Source: Tubiluchus corallicola (lineage: Eukaryota; Animalia; Priapulida). From it: a stretch of DNA of 64,000 bases. The DNA is taken from NCBI GenBank assembly GCA_030141605.1, contig JAQGDQ010000109.1, positions 1-64,000 of the forward strand, read 5' to 3'. Below are positions 604-64,000 of this stretch, piece by piece; position 1 is the stretch's first letter; the number at the start of each line of letters is the position of its first letter. The translations under genes were made by a program, and so were the position numbers. Below the pieces are notes generated by a model. That model did not search any database, had not been told where the DNA came from, and saw only the letters and a list, made by a program, of their open reading frames with translations.

Positions 604-844
604 CGGCGGACGCATCAGTTGACGCACCTCTTTAATTGACCTCAATGTACATACTCAACATTGTCATCAATCTCACCAAGTCTGTGATATTTGAGAGTCA
701 GCTGATTTTTTACTGCATTGCACATGATTCATAGAGCTGTTGAAGGAAAAAGACGAAATATGTCGTAATTGTGGCTTCCTAGACGTTTCCAACGTTGCAG
801 TGAGACACAGTAGGCAGAATATGTGAAATTTTTCAGGTTTTAGA

Positions 845-1655
845 ATGTTAATGAAACCCCACAAATGTGACTTATGTGACAAATCATTCTCTTGGCGAGG
901 TCATCTTTTCAGGCACATGAACACTCACACTGGAATGAAGCCCCACAAATGTGACTTATGTGACAAATCATTCTCTTGGCGAGGTCATCTTTTCAGGCAC
1001 ATGAACACTCACACTGGAATGAAACCCCACAAATGTGACTTATGTGACAAATCATTTTTTCAGCAAGGTCATCTTCTCAGGCACATGAACACCCATACTG
1101 GAATGAAGCCCCGCAAATGTGACTTATGTGACAAATCATTTTCTGTGCGATGTAATCTTCTGAGTCACATGAACACTCGTAGAATGAAACCCCACAAATA
1201 TGACTTATGTGACAAATCATTTGCTCAACGAGGTAGTCTTCTCAGTCACACGAACACCCATACTGGAATGAAACCTCACAAATGTGACTTATGTGACAAA
1301 TCATTTTCTCGGCGAGGTCATCTTTTCAGGCACATGAACACTCACACTGGAATGAACCCCGGCAAATGTGACTCATGTGTCAAATCATATTCTGGAATGA
1401 ACCCCCACAAATGTGACTTATGTGACAAATCATTTTCTGAGCGAGGCAGTCTTCTCAGTCACATGAACACTCATACTGGAATGAAACCCCCCAAATGTGA
1501 CTTATGTGACATCATTTGCTCAACGAGGTAGTCTTCTCAGTCATACGAACACCCATACTGGAATGAAACCTCACAAATGTGACTTATGTGACAAATCATT
1601 TGCTCGGCGAGGTCATCTTCTCAGTCACATGAACATTCATACTGCGGCATGCTGA
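845..1655 (+). pseudogene. C2H2 zinc-finger tandem array exon (about 10 fingers, several degenerate), frameshifted
   Basis: 84-bp repeats encode KPHKCDLCDKSFxxxxxLxxHMNTHTGM. AG acceptor-like sequence upstream (ttttcag/ttttag, about 830-843). A 2-nt deletion near 1511 (GAC-ATCATTT vs GACAAATCATTT) shifts the frame, and fingers continue to TGA at 1653-1655. One finger has C>Y, one lacks the second His, one is truncated. Confidence 0.8.
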
Positions 1656-1887
1656 CATGGTGAGATGAAAATTACTGTTACACGTTTGGGTTAATGGGTA
1701 ACAAAAAAGTTTCTTGTGTGAAACTACTCCAACTAGTCAGAGGAGGAGGAAGAGGGTGACTTGTCCTGACCGCCCTTTAGGAAACACGACTGGAGCACCT
1801 CTGACATTTCATTGTCTTACTGTAGGAGATTACAATAAGTAATTGTAGAGAAATAAGACATACCGAAAACATCTTAATCTGAAAACC

Positions 1888-2006
1888 ATGGCTGTCCATG
1901 AATGGCTTCACACCGCCATCTCTCGTAATCGCTCACGTCATGTGATGTATCAAGGTCACTATCGACATACGTGTCCAACAAAATGCGCTCCCGTTCCTCC
2001 TGAACA
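1888..2006. repeat. 119-bp direct repeat, copy 2
   Basis: Matches 485-603; minus strand reads VQEERERILLDTYVDSDLDTSHDVSDYERWRCEAIHGQP. Confidence 0.9.
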
Positions 2007-2110
2007 TTTTTAACCTGTTTTAGTTTACTGAATGAGCGCTCTGCAGCGGCTACAGCAGGTATTGTGAGAAGAATATGCATCTCTAGGTAGGGCAACTGAT
2101 TCAGATCCAC
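2007..2110 (-). mobile_element. hAT transposase C-terminal dimerisation-domain fragment
   Basis: Translation ILLTIPAVAAAERSFSKLKQVKN matches the hATC motif LLTIPxxxAxxERSFSxLKxxK. Confidence 0.75.
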
Positions 2111-2489
2111 ACGAATACTGGTCATGCCAACGTACAAAACTTAATATTTATGGGCCCGGGGACATCGTACCCCTCTTCTTGGGCATGACCCGAGAGAAGT
2201 ATTTGGATATGAAAATGACACAACTCGTTCGAGCAAAATAAGCTTAATGGTTAGCAAGGGAACCGTCAGTTCAAAAGAATAACAGTAAAATGAGTAAATC
2301 ACCAGCGATATTCTCAACCTTTTTCATAATCGTCTGGCATAATAGCTCAGGGAAACAGCAACTTTTCTTTTACACCTGTCACAGGTGCTTTTGTAATCAA
2401 GACACGTAATCAGAATATGGAAAGGGTACCTAGTTTAGGCTCCGTTGCAGACATTAGTTGTAGGCATCCATACGGCTTCGGCAGGCGCT

Positions 2490-30706: not shown

Positions 30707-32237
30707 AATGAAAAGCTTTACAATTTGGCACAACGGTACCTGGAAGTCTTACACGTAGATTCAATAACTTATTTTTGCATTTTACAGACAGTAATGTTTG
30801 GCGAAACTAGTAAGAATGTTATAGTTATACATAGGCTAGTTGCAATAAATAAACTCTTGCCCGATGTTCACGTAATGGTATTACAAACCCATTTTGAATT
30901 AAATTTAACACTAAACTTGACAGGAAATGTGCAAAACTTATTCAGCCTGGATTTGAACTAGAGACTTTCTGCTTACAAGCCAGACACCTTAGATCAGTAG
31001 GTCACCGCATCCCAATGATCAAGACACCCCTAAGTTCATCCGTTATAGCTAGCCTACCAGAAGAACTTTGAACTGCTTTGATCACTGGGGATAAGGCGGC
31101 CTAATTTATTGTATGCAAGTTTGTGTCCATGTCACAAGATGTTCTACAATGTCGTTTGCATGGGATGGGAAACAGTGTCAAACGCTTTTTAAAATCTATA
31201 TGTATATATAGCATGTGCTATATTGCCATTGTCTGTAGCTAAACCAAAGTCATATAAACATTCAAGTAATTGAGTTGTAGTGGGTCGCTTAGATAAAAAG
31301 CCCTGTTGCTCGTTTGAGAATAAACCTTAACATTTTGAAAAGTGAAGCATAATATCAGCAACCCGCACTTCAATTAATTTACAGCTTACACATTTCCCTT
31401 CTTTTGAATAGGTATAGCTTCATCAAGTTTCCAAACATCAGGTAATGCGCCATCTATAAGCGACTTTTGAAAGATATAAGACAATGGAAGACATACATTA
31501 TTCATCTTTTTTTAAATATCGCTGGTATGACGTCAGGAGTATGGCTTCAGTTTACGTTTCGTTTTTTTAATTACAGCAGGCGAGAACTCATCAAATGACA
31601 AGCATTCATTATCTGGTACTTTACTTTCAATAGCAGGGCATATTCCAACAAATATGCTTGTTGTTGGAGGGATTCCAACAAAACGGGACTCAGAGCATTT
31701 ATTTAAAAAAATTAGCTTTATCATCTGTAATATCCGGCCAGTGTCATTTTTAAAGGGGATACCCTATTATCATTACATAGACCAAAAGGCTGTTGAGATC
31801 TCCTTTATTCAAAACTTTCTTTTCACGATGTTTACGCAGTTTTTTGTTACTTTTTTGAACTCTTCGTTTGCAGCGTCATGCTCAGTTTTTAGATTCTCCG
31901 AATCTTGTTTTCGGAGGGGTGATCAACTTTTTAATTGTTGCAATATGGTTTAAGAAAGCATTTGGTAGGTACGTAAGTTTCAATAGTAGTCATAACGCCG
32001 TTTATAAAAACGTTCCACATTTCATCCACATAGAACAGACCAGTTAAAACGTAATAATGCATTTGATAGAGCATTTGGTTTTGTTAATTGATTTTTTTTA
32101 AGTTTAAGAGGTAAAATTTAAGACGAGGCTTTATGCAATCAGTTTTTTGCAACGTGTTGGGCAATAAATTCTATGAATCTAAGATAATTATTATTAATTG
32201 ATGCGCTTCGACGGTTTGTGGAAAACGTGCTATTATC

Positions 32238-41132: not shown

Positions 41133-42301
41133 TCTGCCTGATCACTTGTCTCATAACTACGCGAAAGCTCGCTATACTGCATATTGTATATAATATATCA
41201 AGTACGATCAGTTTGTGAAAGCTGGAAGTGATTTAATTCAAATTTAAAGATTCAAGATTGTTTATTTCAATCTTGTTTCAAGCGCCCCACACTTAATGCT
41301 AGAGTGACCTAGAAAATTAAACTAGAAACAAAGCTAGAACTGAATTATTTCCTGTCACTGTGAACGTCTTGAAATTGCATTTTTGACGATGAATAAGAAA
41401 GAATATACAAAAATTCTCGAAGGCATTGATGCTGGACGGGTATTATGCTTGAACGTTTTACCGAAAAAGCAAAAATCTACAGAAAAGCTGCGTTCATCAG
41501 CTGGAAGAGTAGAATTAAATCACTCTCATTAATGTTAAGCAATTTAGTTCAAATGAATGATTAAGAAGAGTAGAAGTGCATGCTACCAAAAATTTTTGTA
41601 GATCCTCATTCATTTGACGGCATTCGGGCAATTCTGGTTCGTTTTAGTTTGTGTTTATCTTTGCACACCCTGGCGGTTTTCAGATTTTAAATAATGTACT
41701 TAGATTTTTCATTATGTGTTTTGCTGCCAAAGTTTTATCTATACCAGTTTCATAGTAGCGTTTCGTTTTAGAGAGTAGATAACAAGGTTCTTCAGTTCAT
41801 GAGTATTTAAAAAGTGAAACACGTTGATAGTAAACTTGTCTTGTTCGTTGAACAAAGTCAGAGTTTTATTTTTGTCAAACAGCGCTAGAAAAATTCTTTT
41901 AGATCCCAACCCAAAATGACCTCCAGACTTGTAAAAAGTCCAGTAGCCCTTTACACCTAGTAGCTGAAACTCCGTCTCCAGCACTATTTGAAAAAATAAA
42001 ACTCCGGTTTGAAGCAACAATTTCTCTATGCCAATGTGTATAACATTTCAAATACCGCTGAACTGAGCAGATGAAGGGTTTTATCTGCTCTACGAAAACG
42101 AATAATGCTGATTACACCACTATAACGAGGCAAAAGGAAAACATTTTGATTGTTACAACATTTGACAAAAGGGCAAGCCTACAATAATTATTTAAAATCT
42201 AAATTATCCACATAATATTGTTAGCAATTGTTTTTCTTCACTAGATGTATTTTTTTTATTTTAATATCTCAAGACTGTTTATCTTTGTTTCAGTTTATAA
42301 G

Positions 42302-43108
42302 ATGAGTTTAAGTTCGTCGAGACAGTCTACCACAACTCAAAGCGCCCTTGTAGTTCTTCTTTTTCTTCTACACACATCATCTTTCGTCAACACGGAAAGT
42401 GCCGCGCAGCCTAAGCGAGGGCCTAATGACTTGAACAGATTCGCGTTTGGCTTGGGCAAGCGAGCCCGTGGTCCCACAGACTTGAACGCGTTTGCATTCG
42501 GCCTTGGAAAGCGAGGAAACGATAAGTATAATTTTCCTGATTTGGAAGAACAAGAAAAGAGAGCCAGAGGAAGGGAGGATACAAATCGTTGGGCGTTCGG
42601 ACTTGGTCGCAAACGCGGACCCACCGATTACAGGGCATTCAGTTTCGGTCTCGGAAAACGGGAAGAAATCCCAACAGATCTGAATAGGTTTAGCTTTGGT
42701 CTTGGCAAACGAGAAGAGATACCAACAGATTTGAACAGATTTAGCTTTGGTCTTGGCAAACGTGAGGAGATACCAACAGATCTGAACAGGTTTAGCTTTG
42801 GTCTTGGCAAACGTGAAGAGATACCAACAGATCTGAACAGGTTTAGCTTTGGTCTTGGCAAACGTGAAGAGATACCAACAGATCTGAACAGGTTTAGCTT
42901 TGGTCTTGGCAAACGTGACGACATACCAACAGATCTGAACAGATTTAGCTTTGGTCTTGGCAAACGTGAAGAAATACCAACAGATCTGAACAGATTTAGC
43001 TTTGGTCTAGGCAAACGTGTACCTTTAGAATTTGAAGAAAAGAAGAGGCGGCAAAAGGGAGCATCAGATTTAAATAGCTTCAATTTTGGTTTGGGGAGAA
43101 GGAAGTAA
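42302..43108 (+). CDS. AstA: Allatostatin-A/buccalin-type (FGLamide) neuropeptide precursor, 268 aa
   Basis: Acceptor tttgtttcag ends at 42293, so the ATG at 42302 is preferred over 42245. Hydrophobic signal segment ALVVLLFLL. Twelve peptides end F/W-x-F-G-L followed by G-KR, G-RKR or G-RRK (amidation plus convertase sites). Stop at 43106-43108. Confidence 0.92.
   Translation: MSLSSSRQSTTTQSALVVLLFLLHTSSFVNTESAAQPKRGPNDLNRFAFGLGKRARGPTDLNAFAFGLGKRGNDKYNFPDLEEQEKRARGREDTNRWAFGLGRKRGPTDYRAFSFGLGKREEIPTDLNRFSFGLGKREEIPTDLNRFSFGLGKREEIPTDLNRFSFGLGKREEIPTDLNRFSFGLGKREEIPTDLNRFSFGLGKRDDIPTDLNRFSFGLGKREEIPTDLNRFSFGLGKRVPLEFEEKKRRQKGASDLNSFNFGLGRRK
42662..43018 (+). repeat. Coding 51-bp tandem repeat, 7 copies
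   Basis: Six EEIPTDLNRFSFGLGKR and one DDIPTDLNRFSFGLGKR; differences are mostly synonymous. Confidence 0.97.
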
Positions 43109-45411
43109 ACTTTCTCAGAGTGGTAAGTCTTGCGCAACTACAATTTTCTACGGATGTTTAACTTTCCATTGTCATTTTTCCTAAATAAATAATTAAATGT
43201 CATTATAGCCATCACATTTTACGTTGTCACCGAAGAAATGCCATCATTGTCATCATCAAAATCTTCGTCAACAGCTTGTCATTTCATTATTATCATTAGC
43301 AGCTTATCGAATTTCATTATTATCATTAGCATTGTTTATTAAAATTACACCTTACCTTTATCATAGTGACTATCGTCTTCGTCGTCGTCGTCGTCGTCAT
43401 CATCATCATCATCATCATTATTGTCATCGTATTCATTACCATTATCGTCATATTCGTCAATCATCATCATTATCGGCACTGTTATCACATGTTACCACCA
43501 TCACTATCACCATCATCATCATCATCGTCGTCGTCATCAACATCATCATCTCCATCGAATTGACCATCTTGTGCTTCTACTACCTCTATGTGTAAAACAT
43601 TGACCTCTCTTGCCATTAACAATAACCCTAAAAGTTTAAAATTGTAGTCCATTCTGTAGGTAACTTTAACATTTAGAATTTGAGCAAAGATCCCAAGATC
43701 TACTCTACAAAGTGCCCTTTTCTCAAATTATCGACAACTGGACTGCTTGCCCTTTAACCGGATCAATCCTACGCAATTTGCTTGCACTTTCTCCCTGATG
43801 TTAAGGCAACGAAGGAAAGCCTTTAGTAGCAATGATTTTTCATAAAAAGGGTAATAATCAATTTAAGTGAAACCATAATGTCGCTTTCACCGATGCGTTA
43901 GTTTTAAGTGATTGCGGTTATCTGATGGAAATGGGCCACTTTGACATATGCTGCATTGGCTTCCCAATAACTTTCGGCAAAAAGTGACAGCGCGTAGGAA
44001 ATGCGCTGAAATAGAAACATTAGTTACAAATTTGAATGAAAGAGGCCGCATCAAATTCGTAGAACGATTTCAATGACCAAAACAAAAACAGCAAACGGTC
44101 AATCCTTAGCCGACCAAGCGGTTTTTATATTAGGATAAAAGACCAAGCCGGGCAATAAATTACCCCATGAAAATTTTGTTTTTGCTAACTGTAAAGATTC
44201 TATAGACTGAGCAACTGCAATTCGTGTGCTCCTGGTAGTACAAAACCAAGTTCTACGGCAAGTTGGCTTAGGTATAGGAGGACACCAATGACAAAAACAG
44301 CTTTATGCGAAGCTTGTCAAGTCTTGTGAAAATTATTCTAATAGGTTAATGATGTTCACTGTTTAATTCTGAGACATCCACTTCGTCTCAGTTGTCAAGA
44401 TTATCATAAGGTGCTGCCAGAAAGAAAAATACTGCTATGTGAACTCCACAATTTAGCCTGCATAAAAGACCAAGAGGGATAATAAGCTATCAAACACCAA
44501 GTAGTATCTGGCACTCGTGCTTTGTAAAAAGCATGAATAATAGTTTTCAACAAGACCAAGGTAACGTTGCATAACTAATTAAAAAACATTTAACTACTAC
44601 TCGTTTGAACATTTTACATTGTGTACATAAATATAAAAATGGTGAGCAAACATTGCTGAGGGCAAGTTTTTACTACACTCTGGTCGGCTAAGAGAGCACT
44701 GAAACATAAGACAGTAAACCGGTTTGTAACACATCAACCACTAAACCAAGCTAGTTAATGGAAAAACGATGACGCTGAAAAATTGTAAAACAACCAGTAC
44801 ACGAACCTAGAACCTTCTGCTTACAAAGCAGAGCTACTGGCCCATCGTTACAAAGAAGTCGGTCTGAATTCCCATCCTAGTAGTACACAATGAATCAGAA
44901 CGACTTATAAAATATTTGAAACATTTCAAGCACCAGCTGTTCGTCCTAGAGTTTAAAAATTTTTAGAGCTCTGCTTAGATACACTTAAGAGTTAACAGTG
45001 ATGCACTAATTTCTCGATAAGCTTTAGCAGTAGGCCTAAAGTCAGCTAGGTTACTGGTGATGTATAGCTGATGTGCAAAAACTCTTCTGATATATAATAC
45101 TTCTGAGCCCTGTAGGTAATAAGTTATAGTCATCGTCATCATTGTCATTAGTTTCATGATGATGATGATGATGATCATCATCATCATCGTCATCATTGTC
45201 ATCATCATCGCCATTGTTGTCATTTTCACACTCTACACATTGACGACGCATCTTGATAATCTTTAACTTAGTAGACAGTAGGCCTATTGTGATAAAAAAG
45301 ACCTTATCCAGCACATGAATTTAACATAACTTTAACCACGGATTACCAATTTCCATATTACCACGTAATTTCCACATACAGATTATTGTAATGCACCGGA
45401 ATTAGAGCAGT

Positions 45412-45604
<193 letters not shown>

Positions 45605-45614
45605 CTGGAGAACT

Positions 45615-48050
45615 ACATCAGATCCCGGTGTCATACCAAGAGACCTGAAAAAATGGAGTTTGAAAAAAACAGAGAAATAATGGAATGCTTTTATAGAAGT
45701 GAACCAAAAAAGAAAGGCTACAGAAAACGAATGCAGCAGATGTGGAAAGAAAAGGATAAGAGGGACGTATATCTGAGCAAAAATTAGCAGACCAAGTAAG
45801 AGTTACCAGAAGCAAGAGATTATTCCGCGAATTAGATCAGGACTAAAGTAACAGTCCATAAAATCGATAGTCATGATGATGTGGACGCATCGAAGCAAAT
45901 GTGGGGCAAATGCCAGATGTCAATACAACAGACCACCATCTACAAAGAGTAATTCTTGACGAACAGACCAACAGTTGAAAATTAAGCTTTTAAAAAGTAT
46001 GAGTGTAGAATGATAAGATGATGAGTGAACGAGTCAACTTACCAACATTAATGTCTGTAAATTATAAACAATTAGGACAAGTTACCACAAGAATTGACAG
46101 AATCTACACTGGTAAATTGGAATACATAAGCTTGCCCATGCTGCTGCTGCTTATTATAGCTATGCAGGAGCTTGGAATAAAGCTTCTTAATACAGATAGA
46201 CAGCGCAGTATGCCGCGTTGGAAATTTCGTCTGATTAAGAAGGTTGAAATGCTAAGGTTTAAGTAAGATAGAAGAACTCAAAAGTGGGTATTTGAAGAAA
46301 TGGAAAATGCATTACTGAAGGTGTTATGGAAGAATTTAAACAGCAGATAGTAGCTACTGCGAAGAAAATTAGAAGGTATCAAGATCGAATAGACCAATAT
46401 AGACAAAATGACGGCTGTTTAATAATGATACGGCAAAGGCATTGAAATAAATCTTAAGAGATGAAATTCAGATGGAGAAACAGAGATAGTGGAAAAATTT
46501 TGGATAAATATTTGAGAACAAGAAAAGATGCACAACATAAATGCTACTTGGCTAGAACAAAATGGAGAAATTACAAATGAGCAAAAGGATATAGTTACAA
46601 AAGAGAAATTGACATTTCAGCTAAAAAACGAAAACCTGGAAAACAGCAGGACCAGATAAAATAAGAGGATACTGGGGGACTATACTGTATAGCATTCATG
46701 ATAGAGTGGTTGCACAGTTACAACATACTGTGGAACGAAGGCCCTGCTGAATGGCTTACAGAAGGTCGTACTTCCCTAATTCAAAATACAAGAATAAAGG
46801 TACAATACCATCCAATTACCGGCCCATCACTTGTTTGAGTACTTCTTACTGGAATCATTTCATCTATCCAAGGTATCTATACCAATCTTGTAAAAAGTAA
46901 TTCTTACCATACGAACAGAAAGGATGTAGAAAAGACAGCAGAGTGACAAAAGATCAATTACTGATTAATAAAATGATCATGTGTGACAGTAAATTTAGGA
47001 AGAAAAACCTTGAGACAGTGTAGATATACTATAAGAAGGCATACGATTCAGTGCCTCATAGCTACGTACTGAAAACTGCCAGTTATATAAAATTAGTGAA
47101 AACATTACACTTTTCTCAAAAGCTCAATGACATTGTGGAGAACTGCACTGGTGTGGTAATAGTAATATGGGTAGTGTCAACATCAAGCGAGGAATTTTCC
47201 AAGCAGACTCACTATTCAGCCTAACGACTCAGTCAACAATAAACCATTTACTTTATATGGATGTTCTAAAATTATTAGGCGAATCAGAACTGAAGATTAA
47301 AAGTCTCACACATACAGTGAGGATATACAAATGGAATTCGGGACTGAGAAGTGCGCTAGTTTTTCACTAAAGAGGGGTCACTTGGCTGCAAGTGAAGGGA
47401 TAGTGTTATCACATGACCAAGTCACTGTGCCGATAACAGGCAGTGAAATTTACAAATATCTTGATGTGTTAGAATGTGAGGATATCCGCCATTGTGGCAA
47501 TGAAAGACAAAACTGTGACTGAGCATAAAAGCAGATGTCGAAAGATACTTAAGTTACATTTGAATGCAAAAAAATCAGGCAGATGCTATAAATCTATGTT
47601 GTGTTGTTGTGCTGATGAGATACTTTGGGGGATCATAAATCAGAATTAGCTCCTAGAACTAGATAGGAAGACACGTAATATACGTATCCAGCACATCATC
47701 CTAAGGCAGATGTAGACAGATTGTGCCACGTAATGTAGGCGGAAGAGGTCTGATAAGTGTTTATGATGCTCTACAGATGGAGCCACTTAATCTAAATGAG
47801 TATGTCAACAACAAGAGACAGCCTTTCCTAGAATGTGTCCCTGAAGCCAAACTTACAAAAGGTAATGAAACCAGCAAGGAATGTAAAGAAAGGCACCTGA
47901 GAGAACGGATAGATGAATAGAGAGGAAGGACCTTATGGTGCTGAATACTGAGTCATTATTGATTGCGGTGCAGAGTCAAGCATTGGCGACAAAAAACACA
48001 CAGACTAGAATGTAATTTTTCTGGGTCCATTATGTAGACTCTGTTGCCAG
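45615..48050 (+). mobile_element. Heavily degenerate R4/Dong-like non-LTR retrotransposon
   Basis: Ordered motifs across frames: [130 protein letters not shown]. Many stops and frameshifts. Confidence 0.85.
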
Positions 48051-48186
<136 letters not shown>

Positions 48187-49069
48187 ATAATTGGTTATTT
48201 AGCCGAATGTACAGATTCATTCCACATATAAGAATAAGGACTATTCTAATCCTTACATCTATCTACAAATCAGCATAGTATGTAATCCATACGTTTGGAT
48301 AAACAATTCCTACAAACGGATTAGTAATCAGTACGCATGCGTGTATCTAATTTAATAGTAGTAATTTATTCAAATGCATTATTAAGTTGTCATTATATTA
48401 TTATCGCAACGTTACTTTTCGATGGATCTCGGACTATTAAGTTGTGTGTACTGACCTCCAGTCCCTATTATTAACATTTACAGTCATAAACCTATAGAAA
48501 TTTCAGCCATATTCAATTCGGTGGTTTTTGCTTCCAGAACTTATAGGGACTACCAACCTGTCATATTATATTAAAATGTGAATTATCAGAAGTGGAGATC
48601 AGACGCCTTTCTGTAATTCTTCTATCAAATCTGTCTGTCAAAGCCAAAGCAGGAGATTTTCAATTCAGAGTAGGCGAGGAAAGGAGGCACACTCAGCAAT
48701 CAATTCTTCTCGGTTCAGTGGCCTTGAAGCCTTTGAAAGCTAGTGCTCCTTTCTATTTGTATCAGTTAATGTATTAAATTAGTTATGTCTAATAAGGCTT
48801 TTAGCGTGTCTGAAATCCCGCTTGTTATGAATTTCTTTATCAAAACGGACATTAACAAACCGTTTTAAGGCAATACAACTCATTCTCAGTTGTTCGTCGA
48901 CTGAATGTCATACCCAAAGACTGAAGTTAAATGATATGAACGATCACGATGATATGCACGATCAAGTCACAGAATTTTCTTTGTGATACAAACAAGTGAG
49001 ATCTAGCACCAATGGAAAGTTTTACCGAGATCGAAGAGCCAGCAGAGTTCGGTGTCTCTCTTGAATGTG

Positions 49070-49630
49070 AGTAAAAACTGCACGGTAACAAATGACACAA
49101 ATGGAAAAGTACAAGAAAATGAAACAGGAAAGAAATTCTAGCTTGGAAAACTGCGTAACGCTGTCTATAACCATTGCTTATTAATGTGTATAACTTTATA
49201 AACGGATTTGGCATGTGAATTCATATATTTGTCAGTTATTACCATTGCCGAAATTAATGCTTAAAGAAAGGTAGATAAACACTATGTGAAACTTTCGTGA
49301 ATTATTTTACTTTTGATTCCATTTAATGAACAAAATATTTTGTGAGTCTTTTGCTGATCTATATAATACCAATACAGGCACATTTTTGTATGTTTGCTTG
49401 TTTATCTTTGTTTTACGTTTTTTAATCAAACAACGAGTAAGTTTGAGACTGTTTGGCTTTGGCAGGGATTTGCTTCCTATTGAGCGCATTGTAGTTTTAT
49501 TCTAGAAATTAATTGCATCAAAATAACAAATGCCATTTTTTCGTACTTTTCCTTTCATGCCATTTTTCCGGTGCCATTTTACCTACTTTTCCATTTATAC
49601 CGTTTTTCCTGTGCCGTTTTTACCGCGCAA
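49070..49630. mobile_element. Older, diverged copy of the MULE-like element at 39192-40198
   Basis: AACTGCGTAACGCTGTCTATA, CCATTTAATGAACAAA.TATTTTGTGAGTCTTTTGCTG and GTGCCATTTT repeats align with 39710-40190. Confidence 0.75.
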
Positions 49631-49747
49631 AGTTTCTTTTCCCTGATGTAAATATTCAATTCGAGAACCCATTAAAACATTGACATCTAAAAGACGAGGA
49701 GCTTTGTTATAAATTTTATGTAACATTTTCCTAAGTTATTGTTTCAG

Positions 49748-50330
49748 ATTGCAAGAAGAGAAAATAACGAATGAATAGACAACTCGTTTTGTCAGCAATG
49801 GCTTTATACCATCCTTAAGCAGCAGCAACATCAGCAAACAGGAGGCGTTGATGCTGAGGCAACAACCGGAACAACAAGCGCAACAAATGTTTCCCGTTAC
49901 AGAGGGCAAACAGACTCATAATTATAATTATCATTTTGCATCATGGCGCAAGACTGCAGAGGATTCAGTGCCAATTATAAATGCGCATTATTTTAGTTAC
50001 AGTACTATTAGTTATAAGCAATGTTGGCAACTTTTTGAAATGCCTTCAATTGTTCACTAAAATATTGTTTCTTAACACGAATCACCCAAAAGAAACTGAG
50101 TTCTGAGCAAGTTTAAACTTGCTGAAACGTATCTTATGATAATAGTTAGCAATCTTACACGTTTGAACTCGCAATGTCTTTCCCAATTAATGAATGAATT
50201 TGTGTTAATCAATTATTATATCGAGGTAACAATTCTTTTCTATGTTTGCTACGATGTCCAACTGCAATAATTTCTGTGTTGTATTAAACCGGCATCTGTA
50301 GTAAGTCTATAATAAAGTTTATAGAACCTG
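49748..50330 (+). other. Candidate non-coding 3' UTR exon of the AstA-type gene
   Basis: Acceptor ctaagttattgtttcag ends at 49747, followed by non-repetitive sequence and AATAAA at 50311. It would pair with the GTAAGT donor at 43123. Inferred only. Confidence 0.3.
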
Positions 50331-60900: not shown

Positions 60901-61009
60901 CAAACGGTAGTAATTTTTGCTTTATAAAAAATCAGTAAGTGGTTTGTTACAAATCTTCTTGTCGACTGGAGCTTAATTGTAATAAAGTTTAACAGTCTAC
61001 ATTACCTAC

Positions 61010-61270
61010 CATTAACTGAAATTTTCATTTTATTTGAGCTGTGCAAACCAAAGACATTCTCTGCTTGACATTCGTACTCTCCGCCATCTCTGTATTTTAC
61101 TTTTGATCTCGTAAGAACAGATCCAATGTCAGGCAGGACACTTCCGTCTAGTTTCCAGGTGTAAGTTACTTCTGGATTGGCATCAGATTCGCATTTTAAT
61201 TCCAACGTTGATTTCAAAATCATTTCTGAACTTCCGCTAGCAATACTCAAATCTGCATTTAGTGGCGGAT
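61010..61270 (-). CDS. Ig-C1q protein exon: Ig domain 3 (I/C2-set)
   Basis: ttccag|...|gtaggt, 261 nt, phase 1-1. YPP...LELKCESDANPEVTYTWKLDG...DGGEYECQAENVFG. Confidence 0.92.
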
Positions 61271-62037
61271 CTGGAAAATTTATGATAAGTTAGTTGGGCA
61301 GGCTTTTTGTAAAACTCTGTATTAATGTCACTGTCTTGGCCAGTCGTAATATTAATGGAACAGTCAGCTTTGCAAATTACTGACGGATAATTAATATATG
61401 CAGACAAAGTACATTTTAATAGCTGTGCATTTGCTAGTGCACTATTTTATCCAGAAAAGAAAACATTGCATTTTATAGCTATTTTCTGTCCACCTTCTCC
61501 TATTTTAAACGTTTCTATAAGTGGACATTTTTAAATTCATCCAGTTTTACTTTATTTCAGACGTAACAAAGCGTCCAGTTACACGCTGTAATTGTTACGC
61601 GAGGGTTAGATTACTCATTTCCTTGGCAAAACACATTGTGATACAGGCGGTTTGTGTTTTTGTCCAACGAACATATGTTATTAGTAATAAAATTCAAGAA
61701 ATGTTATTTAAGTTCTGTATCGTGATTGGCTATGGCGCATGTTTTAGCCTCAATTAAATTAGTTAATCATAAAATAATCATAATGTAACTGAGCTTTTAA
61801 AAACCTTACTGGTGTATGTGTAGCCTTCTGTTATACTTGGGGATTTGAAAGTAAAAGCTTAAATATAAAAAGCACGTAATTAAAAAAAACTATCATTTTT
61901 GATGAATTAAAACACTAGCCATTTAACTAATTACTCTGCTGTTTTAATGATGGAATAATAAGGACGATTCAACAATGAGAAAGCCACTGAACTTGCATGT
62001 GCGCGTTTGCGAGTGCAAGAGTTTTTAGACTACTTAC

Positions 62038-62232: not shown

Positions 62233-62643
62233 CTAAAAGACGCAAAAAAGCAACATAATATTACTGATATTGACATCAGATTGTCAGTTTTTTTTGTAAA
62301 CTTGAAATGAGTTCCTGACAAGGCTACTTTTAAAGTTCGGTTAAACCCTGACACTCTTGTACAAAGGTCAAAACGCCTAAGTAGAGTACAGCTGTTAGTT
62401 CTGAATTTCAATCATTGATCCATAAAAACATTTAATCTTTAAGCTTGTTATGCGTTTACGGTTTGATCTTACCTATGATTTAATTTAATCATATTTGTTT
62501 TATTTTCCATTAAAAGCTTTCAATTTTGCGGATATTAAGGTCATTATTCATGATCAGAATTTTCAAAGATTGTTGCTGTTTTTATACACAAACATCGTAA
62601 ATAATTGCAAGAATGTTGAACAACGGTATCACAAAGTACTTAC

Positions 62644-62787
62644 TCATATACCATTTAACTTCAGCAGCTGGATGTACGTCAGCAACAATACATTTGAATG
62701 TTTCATCTAATTCGTTGGCTAAGACAGTAACATCATTTGTAAGTATTTTTTCGTCGTTTAAGAACATCTCCACTTCCTGTGGCTGCA
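62644..62787 (-). CDS. Ig-C1q protein exon: Ig domain 2, first half
   Basis: aacag|...|gtaagt, 144 nt, phase 1-1. VQPQEV...TFKCIVADVHPAAEVKWYM matches the CD80-like C2 pattern CxxxxxxPxxxxxW. Confidence 0.88.
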
Positions 62788-63416
62788 CTGTTACACAAAA
62801 AAGTAATCTACAGTAATGGCGTTGACATTCCTTTGAAATGGCTTATAAAATATGATTATAGCAAATCCAAATGCGATTAATCAAAATAAAACAAACATAA
62901 AAAACGCCGATAATGTAACTGTGGAGGCAGCCTCAAGGCTCAAACAATTCGAATGAAAATAATTGCTCAACCAAATGCGAGACAAAATAAACAGTAAAAT
63001 CAGAAAATGGATTAATCAAGGACAAATCCGGTTGGTAACTTTTCGGTTTTGGCTGCTAATTTCCTACCTTGCACCTCAAAACAGGATGCAGCCAGGTGAG
63101 TAAGTTCTAATCAAATCACCTTTTACATGAAAGAGCAAACATCTAGAAATTAAATTCATTACGTATGATTTCTTGTCTCCTTTGCCTTGTAGTTTTTCAC
63201 GCCACACCTTTGTGATCTCTTTGTCTTTCGTTTATAGACATTCTGGCAATCACAGTCATAATCTAATTAATTAATATATACTTCTAGTGACTCTACGAAG
63301 TGTTTAAAATTTTTGGTCTCCTGTTGCACATAAATTTGCGAAAATTTGCACATAGGCGAAAAAAATACAATTTATCAGTATTTTTTACTTTGTTTAATGT
63401 GTAACTGTATTGTATA

Positions 63417-63645: not shown

Positions 63646-63691
63646 GTTGTACATCTATAGGTATGTCTGTCCGCCTATAATAACATTTTAC

Positions 63692-64000
63692 CTATTACTG
63701 TCAGTTTTGCTGGATCAGACTCCTGCTCAATATCAGGAGCTTCAAAAAGTCGACACACGTAGGTGCCGTCATCTTCCAAGACACTGACATCATCAATTCG
63801 AATGCTGTGCAGTCCATGTATTATTGGGTTGTTGTACATATAAGAAATTCTTCCTGTGATACTAAGAAGATTTCCATCTTTCAGCCACGTAACGTTATAA
63901 TTGACAATAGACACGAGTTTCATGTTGATTCTGCATTCAAGTTCTGCTGTTGATCCCTGCATGACTACAGTACTAGAAGGCTGCATGTCAAAATATTCAC
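63692..64000 (-). CDS. Ig-C1q protein exon: Ig domain 1 (V/I-set), 5' partial
   Basis: EYFDMQPSSTVVMQGSTAELECRI...VTWLKDG...DDGTYVC...AKLTVI, donor G|gtaaaa in phase 1. The frame is open to the window edge; the signal peptide lies outside the window. Confidence 0.9.

What the first reader, a model, noticed from the sequence alone, without database searches (positions are those of the whole stretch)
42302..43108. FGLamide precursor whose peptides align with the galanin core: possible AstA-galanin/kisspeptin bridge
Seen: predicted products are GPNDLNRFAFGLa, ARGPTDLNAFAFGLa, ARGREDTNRWAFGLa, GPTDYRAFSFGLa, EEIPTDLNRFSFGLa (x6), DDIPTDLNRFSFGLa and pQKGASDLNSFNFGLa. Established: Y/F-x-F-G-L-amide defines allatostatin-A, and AstA receptors are related to galanin/spexin and kisspeptin receptors although the ligands look dissimilar. 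Galanin begins GWTLNSAGYLLG and zebrafish Kiss1-10 is YNLNSFGLRY. Ten of the 12 peptides have L-N-x-x-x-F-x-L-G, the same spacing as galanin L-N-S-A-G-Y-L-L-G, and GPTDLNAFAFGLG also echoes G-x-T. The last peptide has LNSF, like kisspeptin. Inference: this precursor may retain an ancestral ligand form and define an undescribed signalling system in this lineage. Short-motif convergence cannot be excluded.
Basis: partly seen in the sequence, partly recalled or inferred. Interest (0 to 1): 0.85.

Follow-up and report, generated by a model that had tools for sequence, protein, structure and literature searches.

The report
Allatostatin-A precursor with ancestral-looking peptides
This gene encodes twelve predicted short nerve-signal peptides of the known allatostatin-A family, likely in a priapulid worm; their front halves match the nematode and mollusc members of that family better than they match vertebrate galanin, so it is most likely a new but ordinary family member rather than a new signalling system.

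Summary
The ORF and all 12 predicted peptides are real. It passes Pfam's allatostatin cut-off (49 bits vs 33.5), with no galanin, spexin or kisspeptin hit. A likely-RNA run of a relative shows splicing at both ends of the coding exon and purifying selection on the peptides.

The galanin argument is weak. Seven of the ten 'LN' copies are 51-nt tandem duplicates. LN is labile: in the relative, L becomes M and N becomes H. The same DLNRFSFGL occurs in a moth AstA. None of the five galanin/spexin-conserved residues is identical in the mature peptides.

The invariant upstream residue is Asp at -9 (12 of 12). In the amide-anchored register it matches molluscan buccalins and C. elegans NLP-1, the proven ligand of the nematode AstA/galanin receptor. 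Galanin L-N-S and kisspeptin N-S-F fall in that same register, so a deep ancestral motif is not excluded (about 20%).

If the animal is a priapulid (earlier scan notes; not confirmed by me), this is a canonical FGLamide outside Panarthropoda. The scan had not noted this gene before.

The parts
42294..43122 (+). Coding exon, from the acceptor tttcag| to the donor |gtaagt
   Evidence: Sequence. Contigs of likely-RNA run X6 start at 42292 with a loose 5' end and leave at 43122 with a loose 3' end.
42302..43108 (+). Prepro-allatostatin-A/buccalin-type ORF, 268 aa
   Evidence: (PF05953, 49 bits, cut-off 33.5)
42302..42412 (+). Predicted signal peptide and N-terminal pro-region (aa 1-37; hydrophobic core about aa 14-23)
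   Evidence: Hydropathy scan; inference
42428..42457 (+). Peptide 1 core DLNRFAFGL plus amide-donor Gly; L at -8 is M in relative X6
42479..42508 (+). Peptide 2 core DLNAFAFGL plus Gly; best match to C. elegans NLP-1-1; N at -7 is H and A at -4 is S in X6
42578..42607 (+). Peptide 3 core DTNRWAFGL plus Gly (no L at -8)
42626..42655 (+). Peptide 4 core DYRAFSFGL plus Gly (no LN); best match to buccalin A
42662..43018 (+). Seven 51-nt tandem units, peptides 5-11 ([ED][ED]IPTDLNRFSFGL-G-KR)
   Evidence: 0-6 synonymous codon differences between units; only unit 6 has 2 E>D changes
43067..43096 (+). Peptide 12 core DLNSFNFGL plus Gly (predicted pQ-blocked N-terminus); LNSF is in amide register with teleost Kiss1
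43123..49747 (+). Intron of 6,625 nt starting 14 nt after the stop codon
   Evidence: GT donor; acceptor located
49748..49777 (+). Start of the 3' (likely untranslated) exon; its end was not determined
   Evidence: 24 of 30 letters match the X6 loose end, directly after ttgtttcag; 0 of 200 shuffled patterns reached 24

Best explanation
This is a spliced gene for an allatostatin-A/buccalin-family precursor that is predicted to be secreted, cut at its KR/RK sites and amidated into 12 peptides ending in F-x-F-G-L-amide, which likely activate this animal's AstA (galanin-type) G-protein-coupled receptor and would damp gut movement and feeding as in other protostomes. Shown: the ORF, the repeats, the cleavage and amidation signals, the Pfam family and the codon-level constraint. 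Shown only in a relative's likely-RNA run: splicing at both ends of the coding exon. Inferred: secretion, processing, the receptor and the physiology. The N-terminal D-x-N-x-F half likely keeps an old protostome feature (Asp at -9 and an aromatic at -5, as in buccalins and nematode NLP-1) joined to the arthropod-type FGL-amide end. The Leu at -8 that makes it look like galanin is likely a lineage feature multiplied by tandem duplication.
For: Pfam Allatostatin at 49 bits vs a 33.5 cut-off, with no galanin, spexin or KiSS family at E<=1. Of the 120 listed of 221 homologues, 114 carry PF05953 and every functionally named one is an AstA, helicostatin or buccalin. 11 of 12 peptides meet Y/F-x-F-G-L-amide, the defining motif (PMC12509031, PMC9263205). 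Relative X6, 40 listed differences in 37 codons: peptide cores 13 synonymous vs 3 non-synonymous, cleavage sites 4 vs 0, signal/pro-region 4 vs 5, other spacers 4 vs 4. The 3 core changes fall at -8, -7 and -4, none at D-9, F-5 or FGLG. D at -9, counted by hand: Lottia buccalins 9 of 10, Mytilus buccalin-1 9 of 9, Pristionchus 2 of 2; Aplysia buccalin A-C 3 of 3; NLP-1-1 to -3 3 of 3, which also have N-7, A-6 and F-5. All 7 distinct window peptides score best against NLP-1-1 at offset 0 from the amide, shuffle p 0.0025-0.031. NLP-1 activates NPR-9, the nematode AstA/galanin-receptor orthologue (PMC11462694). The Aplysia receptor needs amidation and FGL, with the N-terminal MD proposed to add potency; human galanin did not activate it.
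Against: No receptor could be examined, because no genome is held. The priapulid assignment comes from other agents' notes; my own lineage tests were uninformative. The NLP-1 comparison was chosen after I saw the match, four references were tried, and the seven peptides are not independent. D at -9 is in only 56 of 515 distinct long arthropod-type peptides, 8 of 21 Platynereis peptides (17 of 21 D or N, with the aromatic one place nearer the end), 1 of 7 C. elegans nlp-5/6 entries and 0 of 4 Mytilus 'buccalin-2' entries (the last since reassigned). In the N-terminal-half test the galanin register also puts 4 of 7 window peptides in the top 1% of the AstA panel. X6 is only guessed to be RNA, and 12 further differences were not shown.
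Confidence: 0.85

Rival explanations
1. The precursor is still an AstA, but its peptides also keep the bilaterian ancestral ligand form. One 10-residue register counted from the amide Gly ([D/N/T]-[L/W/A]-N-[S/A/R]-F-x-hydrophobic-x-hydrophobic) would be homologous across AstA, NLP-1, kisspeptin and galanin 2-12. This can be true together with the best explanation.
For: With the amide donor aligned to galanin Gly12, galanin L4-N5-S6, teleost Kiss1 N-L-N-S-F, human Kiss10 N-W-N-S-F, NLP-1 D-A-N-A-F and window peptide 12 D-L-N-S-F all fall in the same columns without gaps. Peptide 12 ranks in the top 0.1-0.6% of 928 panel peptides for the galanin, amide-anchored kisspeptin and NLP-1 registers. 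Asn5 is central to galanin binding at GALR2. Echinoderm and chordate kisspeptins align from the amide and share core Asn residues. The receptors and gene neighbourhoods are homologous.
Against: N at -7 is in 0 of 19 Lottia and Mytilus buccalin-1 peptides, 0 of 21 Platynereis and 0 of 2 Pristionchus peptides (hand count). Spexin has P-Q at these places (listing). L and N change in a close relative. LN occurs in 10 of 212 other precursors, and the orthologous moth peptide reads MH 18, LH 10, LN 3, MN 1. The whole-peptide galanin shuffle test gives p 0.036-0.86. Galanin binds a shallow pocket as a helix and needs Trp2.
Confidence: 0.2
2. The peptides are ligands of a kisspeptin-type or GALR-like receptor retained in this lineage, and so define a separate, undescribed system.
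For: The main repeat has 5 identities with human Kiss10 when FGL is aligned to FGL (shuffle p 0.06). Human kisspeptin activates the Aplysia buccalin receptor, so the pockets are similar. Orphan KISSR-like and GALR-like receptors exist in lophotrochozoans.
Against: The multi-copy FGLamide layout and the Pfam score point to AstA. A 2022 review states that KISSR and GALR were lost in Ecdysozoa (priapulids are not mentioned there). The C-terminal L-x-F-amide of kisspeptins and the galanin consensus residues are missing. AstA-type peptides did not activate the Aplysia KISSR-like receptor.
Confidence: 0.07

Closest known systems
Arthropod allatostatin-A (FGLamide) precursors, Pfam PF05953; e.g. Plodia interpunctella XP_053616604.1 and spider AstAs
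   Same: Predicted signal peptide, many KR-flanked Y/F-x-F-G-L-G copies, score above the Pfam cut-off. The Plodia precursor holds the identical 9-mer DLNRFSFGL. Stegodyphus peptides end in N-R-F-A-F-G-L.
   Different: All 6 distinct cores have D at -9; only one other of 212 precursors (75 aa, 3 peptides) does. No close relative is in the protein collections. The animal is likely outside Panarthropoda.
C. elegans NLP-1 / NPR-9 (PMC11462694)
   Same: D-x-N-[A/R/S]-F at -9 to -5 from the amide; NPR-9 is the AstA/galanin-receptor orthologue
   Different: NLP-1 ends in R-M-S-F-amide, not x-F-G-L-amide
Molluscan buccalins / Aplysia Buc/AstA-R (PMC12509031, PMC8514136)
   Same: D at -9, aromatic at -5, G-L-amide end in Aplysia buccalins A and B, many copies
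   Different: Buccalins lack N at -7 and F at -3
Vertebrate galanin, GALP and spexin
   Same: L-N (L-N-S in peptide 12) at galanin 4-6, an aromatic at position 9, Leu at 11; homologous receptors
   Different: No W2, T3 or L10; the Gly12 equivalent is the amide donor; galanin is a longer peptide that binds through its N-terminal part; spexin lacks LN
Kisspeptins (Kiss1-10)
   Same: Either FGL (two residues off the amide register; published, PMC4489612) or N-S-F in amide register (peptide 12)
   Different: No L-R-F/Y-amide end; the two alignments exclude each other

Membership tests
Allatostatin-A/buccalin | C-terminal Y/F-x-F-G-L/I-amide peptides | tested here: met
   11 of 12 strict matches, 1 with W at -5
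Allatostatin-A/buccalin | Multi-copy prepropeptide with basic cleavage sites and Gly amide donors | tested here: met
   cleavage codons 4 synonymous, 0 non-synonymous
Allatostatin-A/buccalin | Pfam PF05953 above the gathering score | tested here: met
   49 bits vs 33.5
Allatostatin-A/buccalin | Signal peptide | tested here: inconclusive
   Hydrophobic core by hydropathy only; no dedicated predictor available
Allatostatin-A/buccalin | Activates an AstA-clade receptor | not testable with these tools
   No genome held; needs a cell assay
Allatostatin-A/buccalin | Conserved synteny (KCNJ, PPFIA, GOLT, GYS, CTSD, CMAS neighbours; PMC4489612) | tested here: inconclusive
   In the 37 window ORFs scanned against Pfam, only zinc-finger, Ig and weak transposon hits besides the precursor; 64 kb is too short for this test
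Galanin/spexin | Trp2, Thr3, Tyr9, Leu10 and Gly12 conserved | tested here: not met
Galanin/spexin | Pfam or solved-structure sequence match | tested here: not met
   No galanin-family hit; 0 PDB chains at E<=10. Short peptides give these tests little power.
Kisspeptin | C-terminal Leu-x-Phe/Tyr-amide | tested here: not met
   Peptides end F-G-L-amide; kisspeptin motif
Kisspeptin | Core Asn (N-S/N-T) | tested here: inconclusive
   N at -7 in 11 of 12, N-S only in peptide 12; N at -7 is also in 76 of 515 ordinary AstA-type peptides

The most novel reading that the evidence does not exclude
An early-branching ecdysozoan keeps the missing-link ligand of the AstA/galanin/kisspeptin superfamily. 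Its D-L-N-S/R-F-x-F-G-L-amide peptides put arthropod AstA, buccalin, nematode NLP-1, kisspeptin-10 and galanin 2-12 into one ungapped register anchored on the amide Gly. The published FGL-to-FGL match between AstA and kisspeptin would then be two residues out of register, and the homologous pharmacophore would be N(-7)-x-F(-5).
Probability: 0.2. Interest if true: 0.62.

Novelty: new member of a known kind. Interest (0 to 1): 0.33.

Why it matters
As an AstA from a likely priapulid, it would extend canonical FGLamides beyond Panarthropoda, where a 2022 review says they stop (PMC9263205). It would also join arthropod AstA (FGL-amide end) to nematode NLP-1 and buccalins (D-x-x-x-F start) in one molecule, giving an ancestral ecdysozoan form that can be tested. 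If the N(-7) register proved homologous to galanin and kisspeptin, it would address the open question of how dissimilar ligands go with homologous receptors. Present evidence leaves that at about one in five.

Tried and rejected

Lineage from the Ig exons: one weak fish hit among 61 candidates and generic Ig clusters; both uninformative. The Atlas search with the precursor had a low recognition score and returned assorted neuropeptide precursors, so I treated it as a lead only.

No close orthologue turned up among proteins of 147-469 aa, 30-146 aa, the 50% representatives or metagenome contigs (245 pattern hits, none confirmed). Proteins over 469 aa were not searched with the word index. PDB sequence search gave 0 hits.

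No RNA holder was listed by the run search. X6 came in only by species label and aligned at 80%. X4 and X5 gave only partial cover of the ORF and were not used.

The upstream exon was not found in the window: best match 18 of 28, within chance. Exact-style searches for both loose ends with up to 3 mismatches found nothing.

Read-through into the 3' exon is rejected: an in-frame TGA forms at the splice junction five codons after the TAA (read). The overlapping minus-strand ORFs are shadows of the repeat. The 'G-x-T' echo is rejected as out of register.

One search crashed in its last step, which was rerun. In one search the N-terminal trimming left one extra basic residue or cut one residue on some peptides; positions -10 to -1 are unaffected.

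Mirabeau and Joly 2013 and Jekely 2013 were not held, so I cannot say whether they already align galanin with AstA/buccalin this way. No structure or complex prediction was run: no receptor sequence was at hand and the peptides are too short.

Full report
OBSERVATION. The stretch 42302-43108 (+) is an intact 268-codon ORF in a 35% GC, microsatellite-rich animal window. Counting back from the amidated Leu (-1), the columns are: L 12, G 12, F 12 (-1 to -3); S 8, A 3, N 1 (-4); F 11, W 1 (-5); R 9, A 2, S 1 (-6); N 11 (-7); L 10 (-8); D 12 (-9), each of 12. Peptides 5-11 are seven 51-nt tandem units that differ by 0-6 synonymous codons. 'Ten of twelve' therefore reduces to four of six distinct cores.

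GENE STRUCTURE AND SELECTION. No genome is held. The run search listed three runs of one sample that hold the DNA, one run of another study, and two runs added by species label. One of the latter, X6 (RNA by the tool's guess), has a contig that starts at the acceptor at 42292-42293 and covers 42292-42824 with 55 differences, and a second contig that leaves the window at the GT donor after 43122. The second contig's loose end matches 49748 onward at 24 of 30 letters, directly after ttgtttcag; none of 200 shuffled patterns reached 24. So the gene has a 5' exon (not located), one coding exon, a 6.6-kb intron 14 nt after the stop, and a 3' exon. Of the 40 differences listed (12 more were not shown), codons changed as follows: peptide cores 13 synonymous and 3 non-synonymous, cleavage sites 4 and 0, signal/pro-region 4 and 5, other spacers 4 and 4. 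The three core changes are L>M at -8 (peptide 1), and N>H at -7 and A>S at -4 (peptide 2).

FAMILY. Pfam Allatostatin scores 49 bits against a 33.5 cut-off, and no galanin, spexin or kisspeptin model appears at E<=1. The listed homologues are AstA-type precursors with no close relative (120 of 221 listed; 145, some of them unrelated repeat proteins; 43 short ones). Earlier agents' notes on other pieces of this genome call it likely priapulid. My own attempts to place it with Ig exons failed, so the lineage is borrowed, not shown.

THE GALANIN CLAIM, FOR. LN at -8/-7 is rare among AstA-type peptides: 6 of 815 distinct 9-mers and 10 of 212 precursors (that panel includes three near-duplicates of one cluster). 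On positions -10 to -5, four of the seven distinct window peptides rank in the top 1% of 928 panel peptides for the galanin register. Asn5 is central to GALR2 binding (PMC9371267, passages).

THE GALANIN CLAIM, AGAINST. The residues shared by galanin, GALP and spexin are Trp2, Thr3, Tyr9, Leu10 and Gly12 (PMC4764904 and PMC9371267, passages; PMC5207463, passages). Spexin has P-Q where galanin has L-N (abstract listing). Trp2-to-Ala abolishes galanin binding. Against shuffled galanin 1-13, the main repeat has p=0.16, peptide 12 p=0.036 and the others 0.14-0.86. The identical DLNRFSFGL is in the Plodia interpunctella AstA, where the orthologous moth-type peptide reads MH 18, LH 10, LN 3 and MN 1 times. 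These are the same L/M and N/H swaps seen in X6. Galanin did not activate the Aplysia or Anopheles receptors; human kisspeptin activated the Aplysia one, and sea bass kisspeptins did not activate the Anopheles ones.

A BETTER BRIDGE. The invariant upstream residue is Asp at -9. By hand count it is in 9 of 10 Lottia, 9 of 9 Mytilus buccalin-1 and 2 of 2 Pristionchus peptides (PMC9263205 supplement 1), and in 3 of 3 Aplysia buccalins listed (PMC12509031 Table S1). C. elegans NLP-1-1 to -3 carry D-x-N-A-F at -9 to -5 and activate NPR-9, the AstA/galanin-receptor orthologue (PMC11462694, passages). All seven distinct window peptides align best to NLP-1-1 with no offset from the amide (shuffle p 0.0025-0.031); six of seven have p<0.16 in that register for buccalin A too, five of them below 0.05. 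Caveats: the comparison was post hoc, four references were tried, and the peptides are related. D at -9 is in only 56 of 515 distinct long arthropod-type peptides, 8 of 21 Platynereis peptides, 1 of 7 nlp-5/6 entries and 0 of 4 Mytilus buccalin-2 entries. N at -7 is absent from all Lottia, Mytilus buccalin-1, Platynereis and Pristionchus entries.

The two likenesses it noted share one register. With the amide donor set on galanin Gly12, galanin L-N-S, teleost Kiss1 N-L-N-S-F, NLP-1 D-A-N-A-F and peptide 12 D-L-N-S-F stack without gaps. The published AstA-kisspeptin alignment instead pairs FGL with FGL and notes a shared Asn (PMC4489612 section 22). That alignment is two residues off the amide register used within the kisspeptin family (PMC9400282, passages). 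Both alignments score the same for window peptides (17 each for the main repeat and peptide 12), which shows how easily 10-residue peptides align by chance. I put a true deep homology of N(-7) at about 20%.

MECHANISM. Shown: ORF, processing signals, family and constraint; splicing in a relative's likely-RNA run. Inferred from the family: secretion, convertase cleavage, amidation, activation of an AstA-clade GPCR through the amidated FGL end with the N-terminal Asp adding potency (as proposed for buccalin 'MD'), and inhibition of gut motility and feeding (PMC9263205, passages).

PRIOR ART. Ten literature searches were run. In the passages I read from their hits I met no priapulid AstA sequence and no amide-anchored alignment like this one; most hits were seen only as listings. 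PMC9263205 says canonical Y/FXFGLamides are unknown outside panarthropods. The NP-HMMer preprint (parts 1-2 of 3 read) reports AstA in rotifers and 25 neuropeptide families in Priapulus caudatus; its table, figures and supplement were not visible, so a priapulid AstA may already be listed there. Mirabeau and Joly 2013 and Jekely 2013 were not held. Also seen as passages only: PMC6188537, PMC8514136, 10.1101/265579, PMC5818035, PMC11004728; sections 18 and 24 of PMC12509031 were read whole. Supplements searched for Priapulus without a hit: 12 of 20 files of PMC9400282 and 13 of 13 of PMC12509031.

VERDICT. A real, selected and likely expressed AstA/buccalin-type precursor; a new member of a known family. 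It has modest evolutionary value as a likely non-panarthropod FGLamide that joins the arthropod and nematode/mollusc forms. The galanin bridge is unproven and partly contradicted. Interest 0.33.

Noticed in passing
window 43043-43122 (+), run X6 record 2: A second contig joins the same upstream-exon end to about 43048, skipping the ATG, the signal region and 11 of 12 peptides. In one frame it would run into peptide 12 only. It could be a short splice form at a purine-rich AG, or an assembly or template-switch artefact.
   Followed up: partly
It may be a relic of a longer C-terminus.
   Followed up: partly
window 827-1531 (+): C2H2 zinc-finger array ORF, about 8 fingers, with further finger-like copies nearby
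   Followed up: no
window 61005-61289, 62585-62842, 63678-63998 (-): Exons of an immunoglobulin-domain protein (I-set, C2-set, Ig) running off the window end; no close relative found
   Followed up: partly
window 1877-2140 (-), 31192-31763 (-), 46296-47917 (+): Decayed mobile-element-like fragments: a weak hAT dimerisation hit (E 0.018) and, by eye only, retrotransposon-like pieces without Pfam support
   Followed up: no
run X6 versus window 42292-42824: About 10% nucleotide difference although the run has the same species label as the best DNA holder; possibly a cryptic species or a labelling difference
   Followed up: no
   Followed up: no
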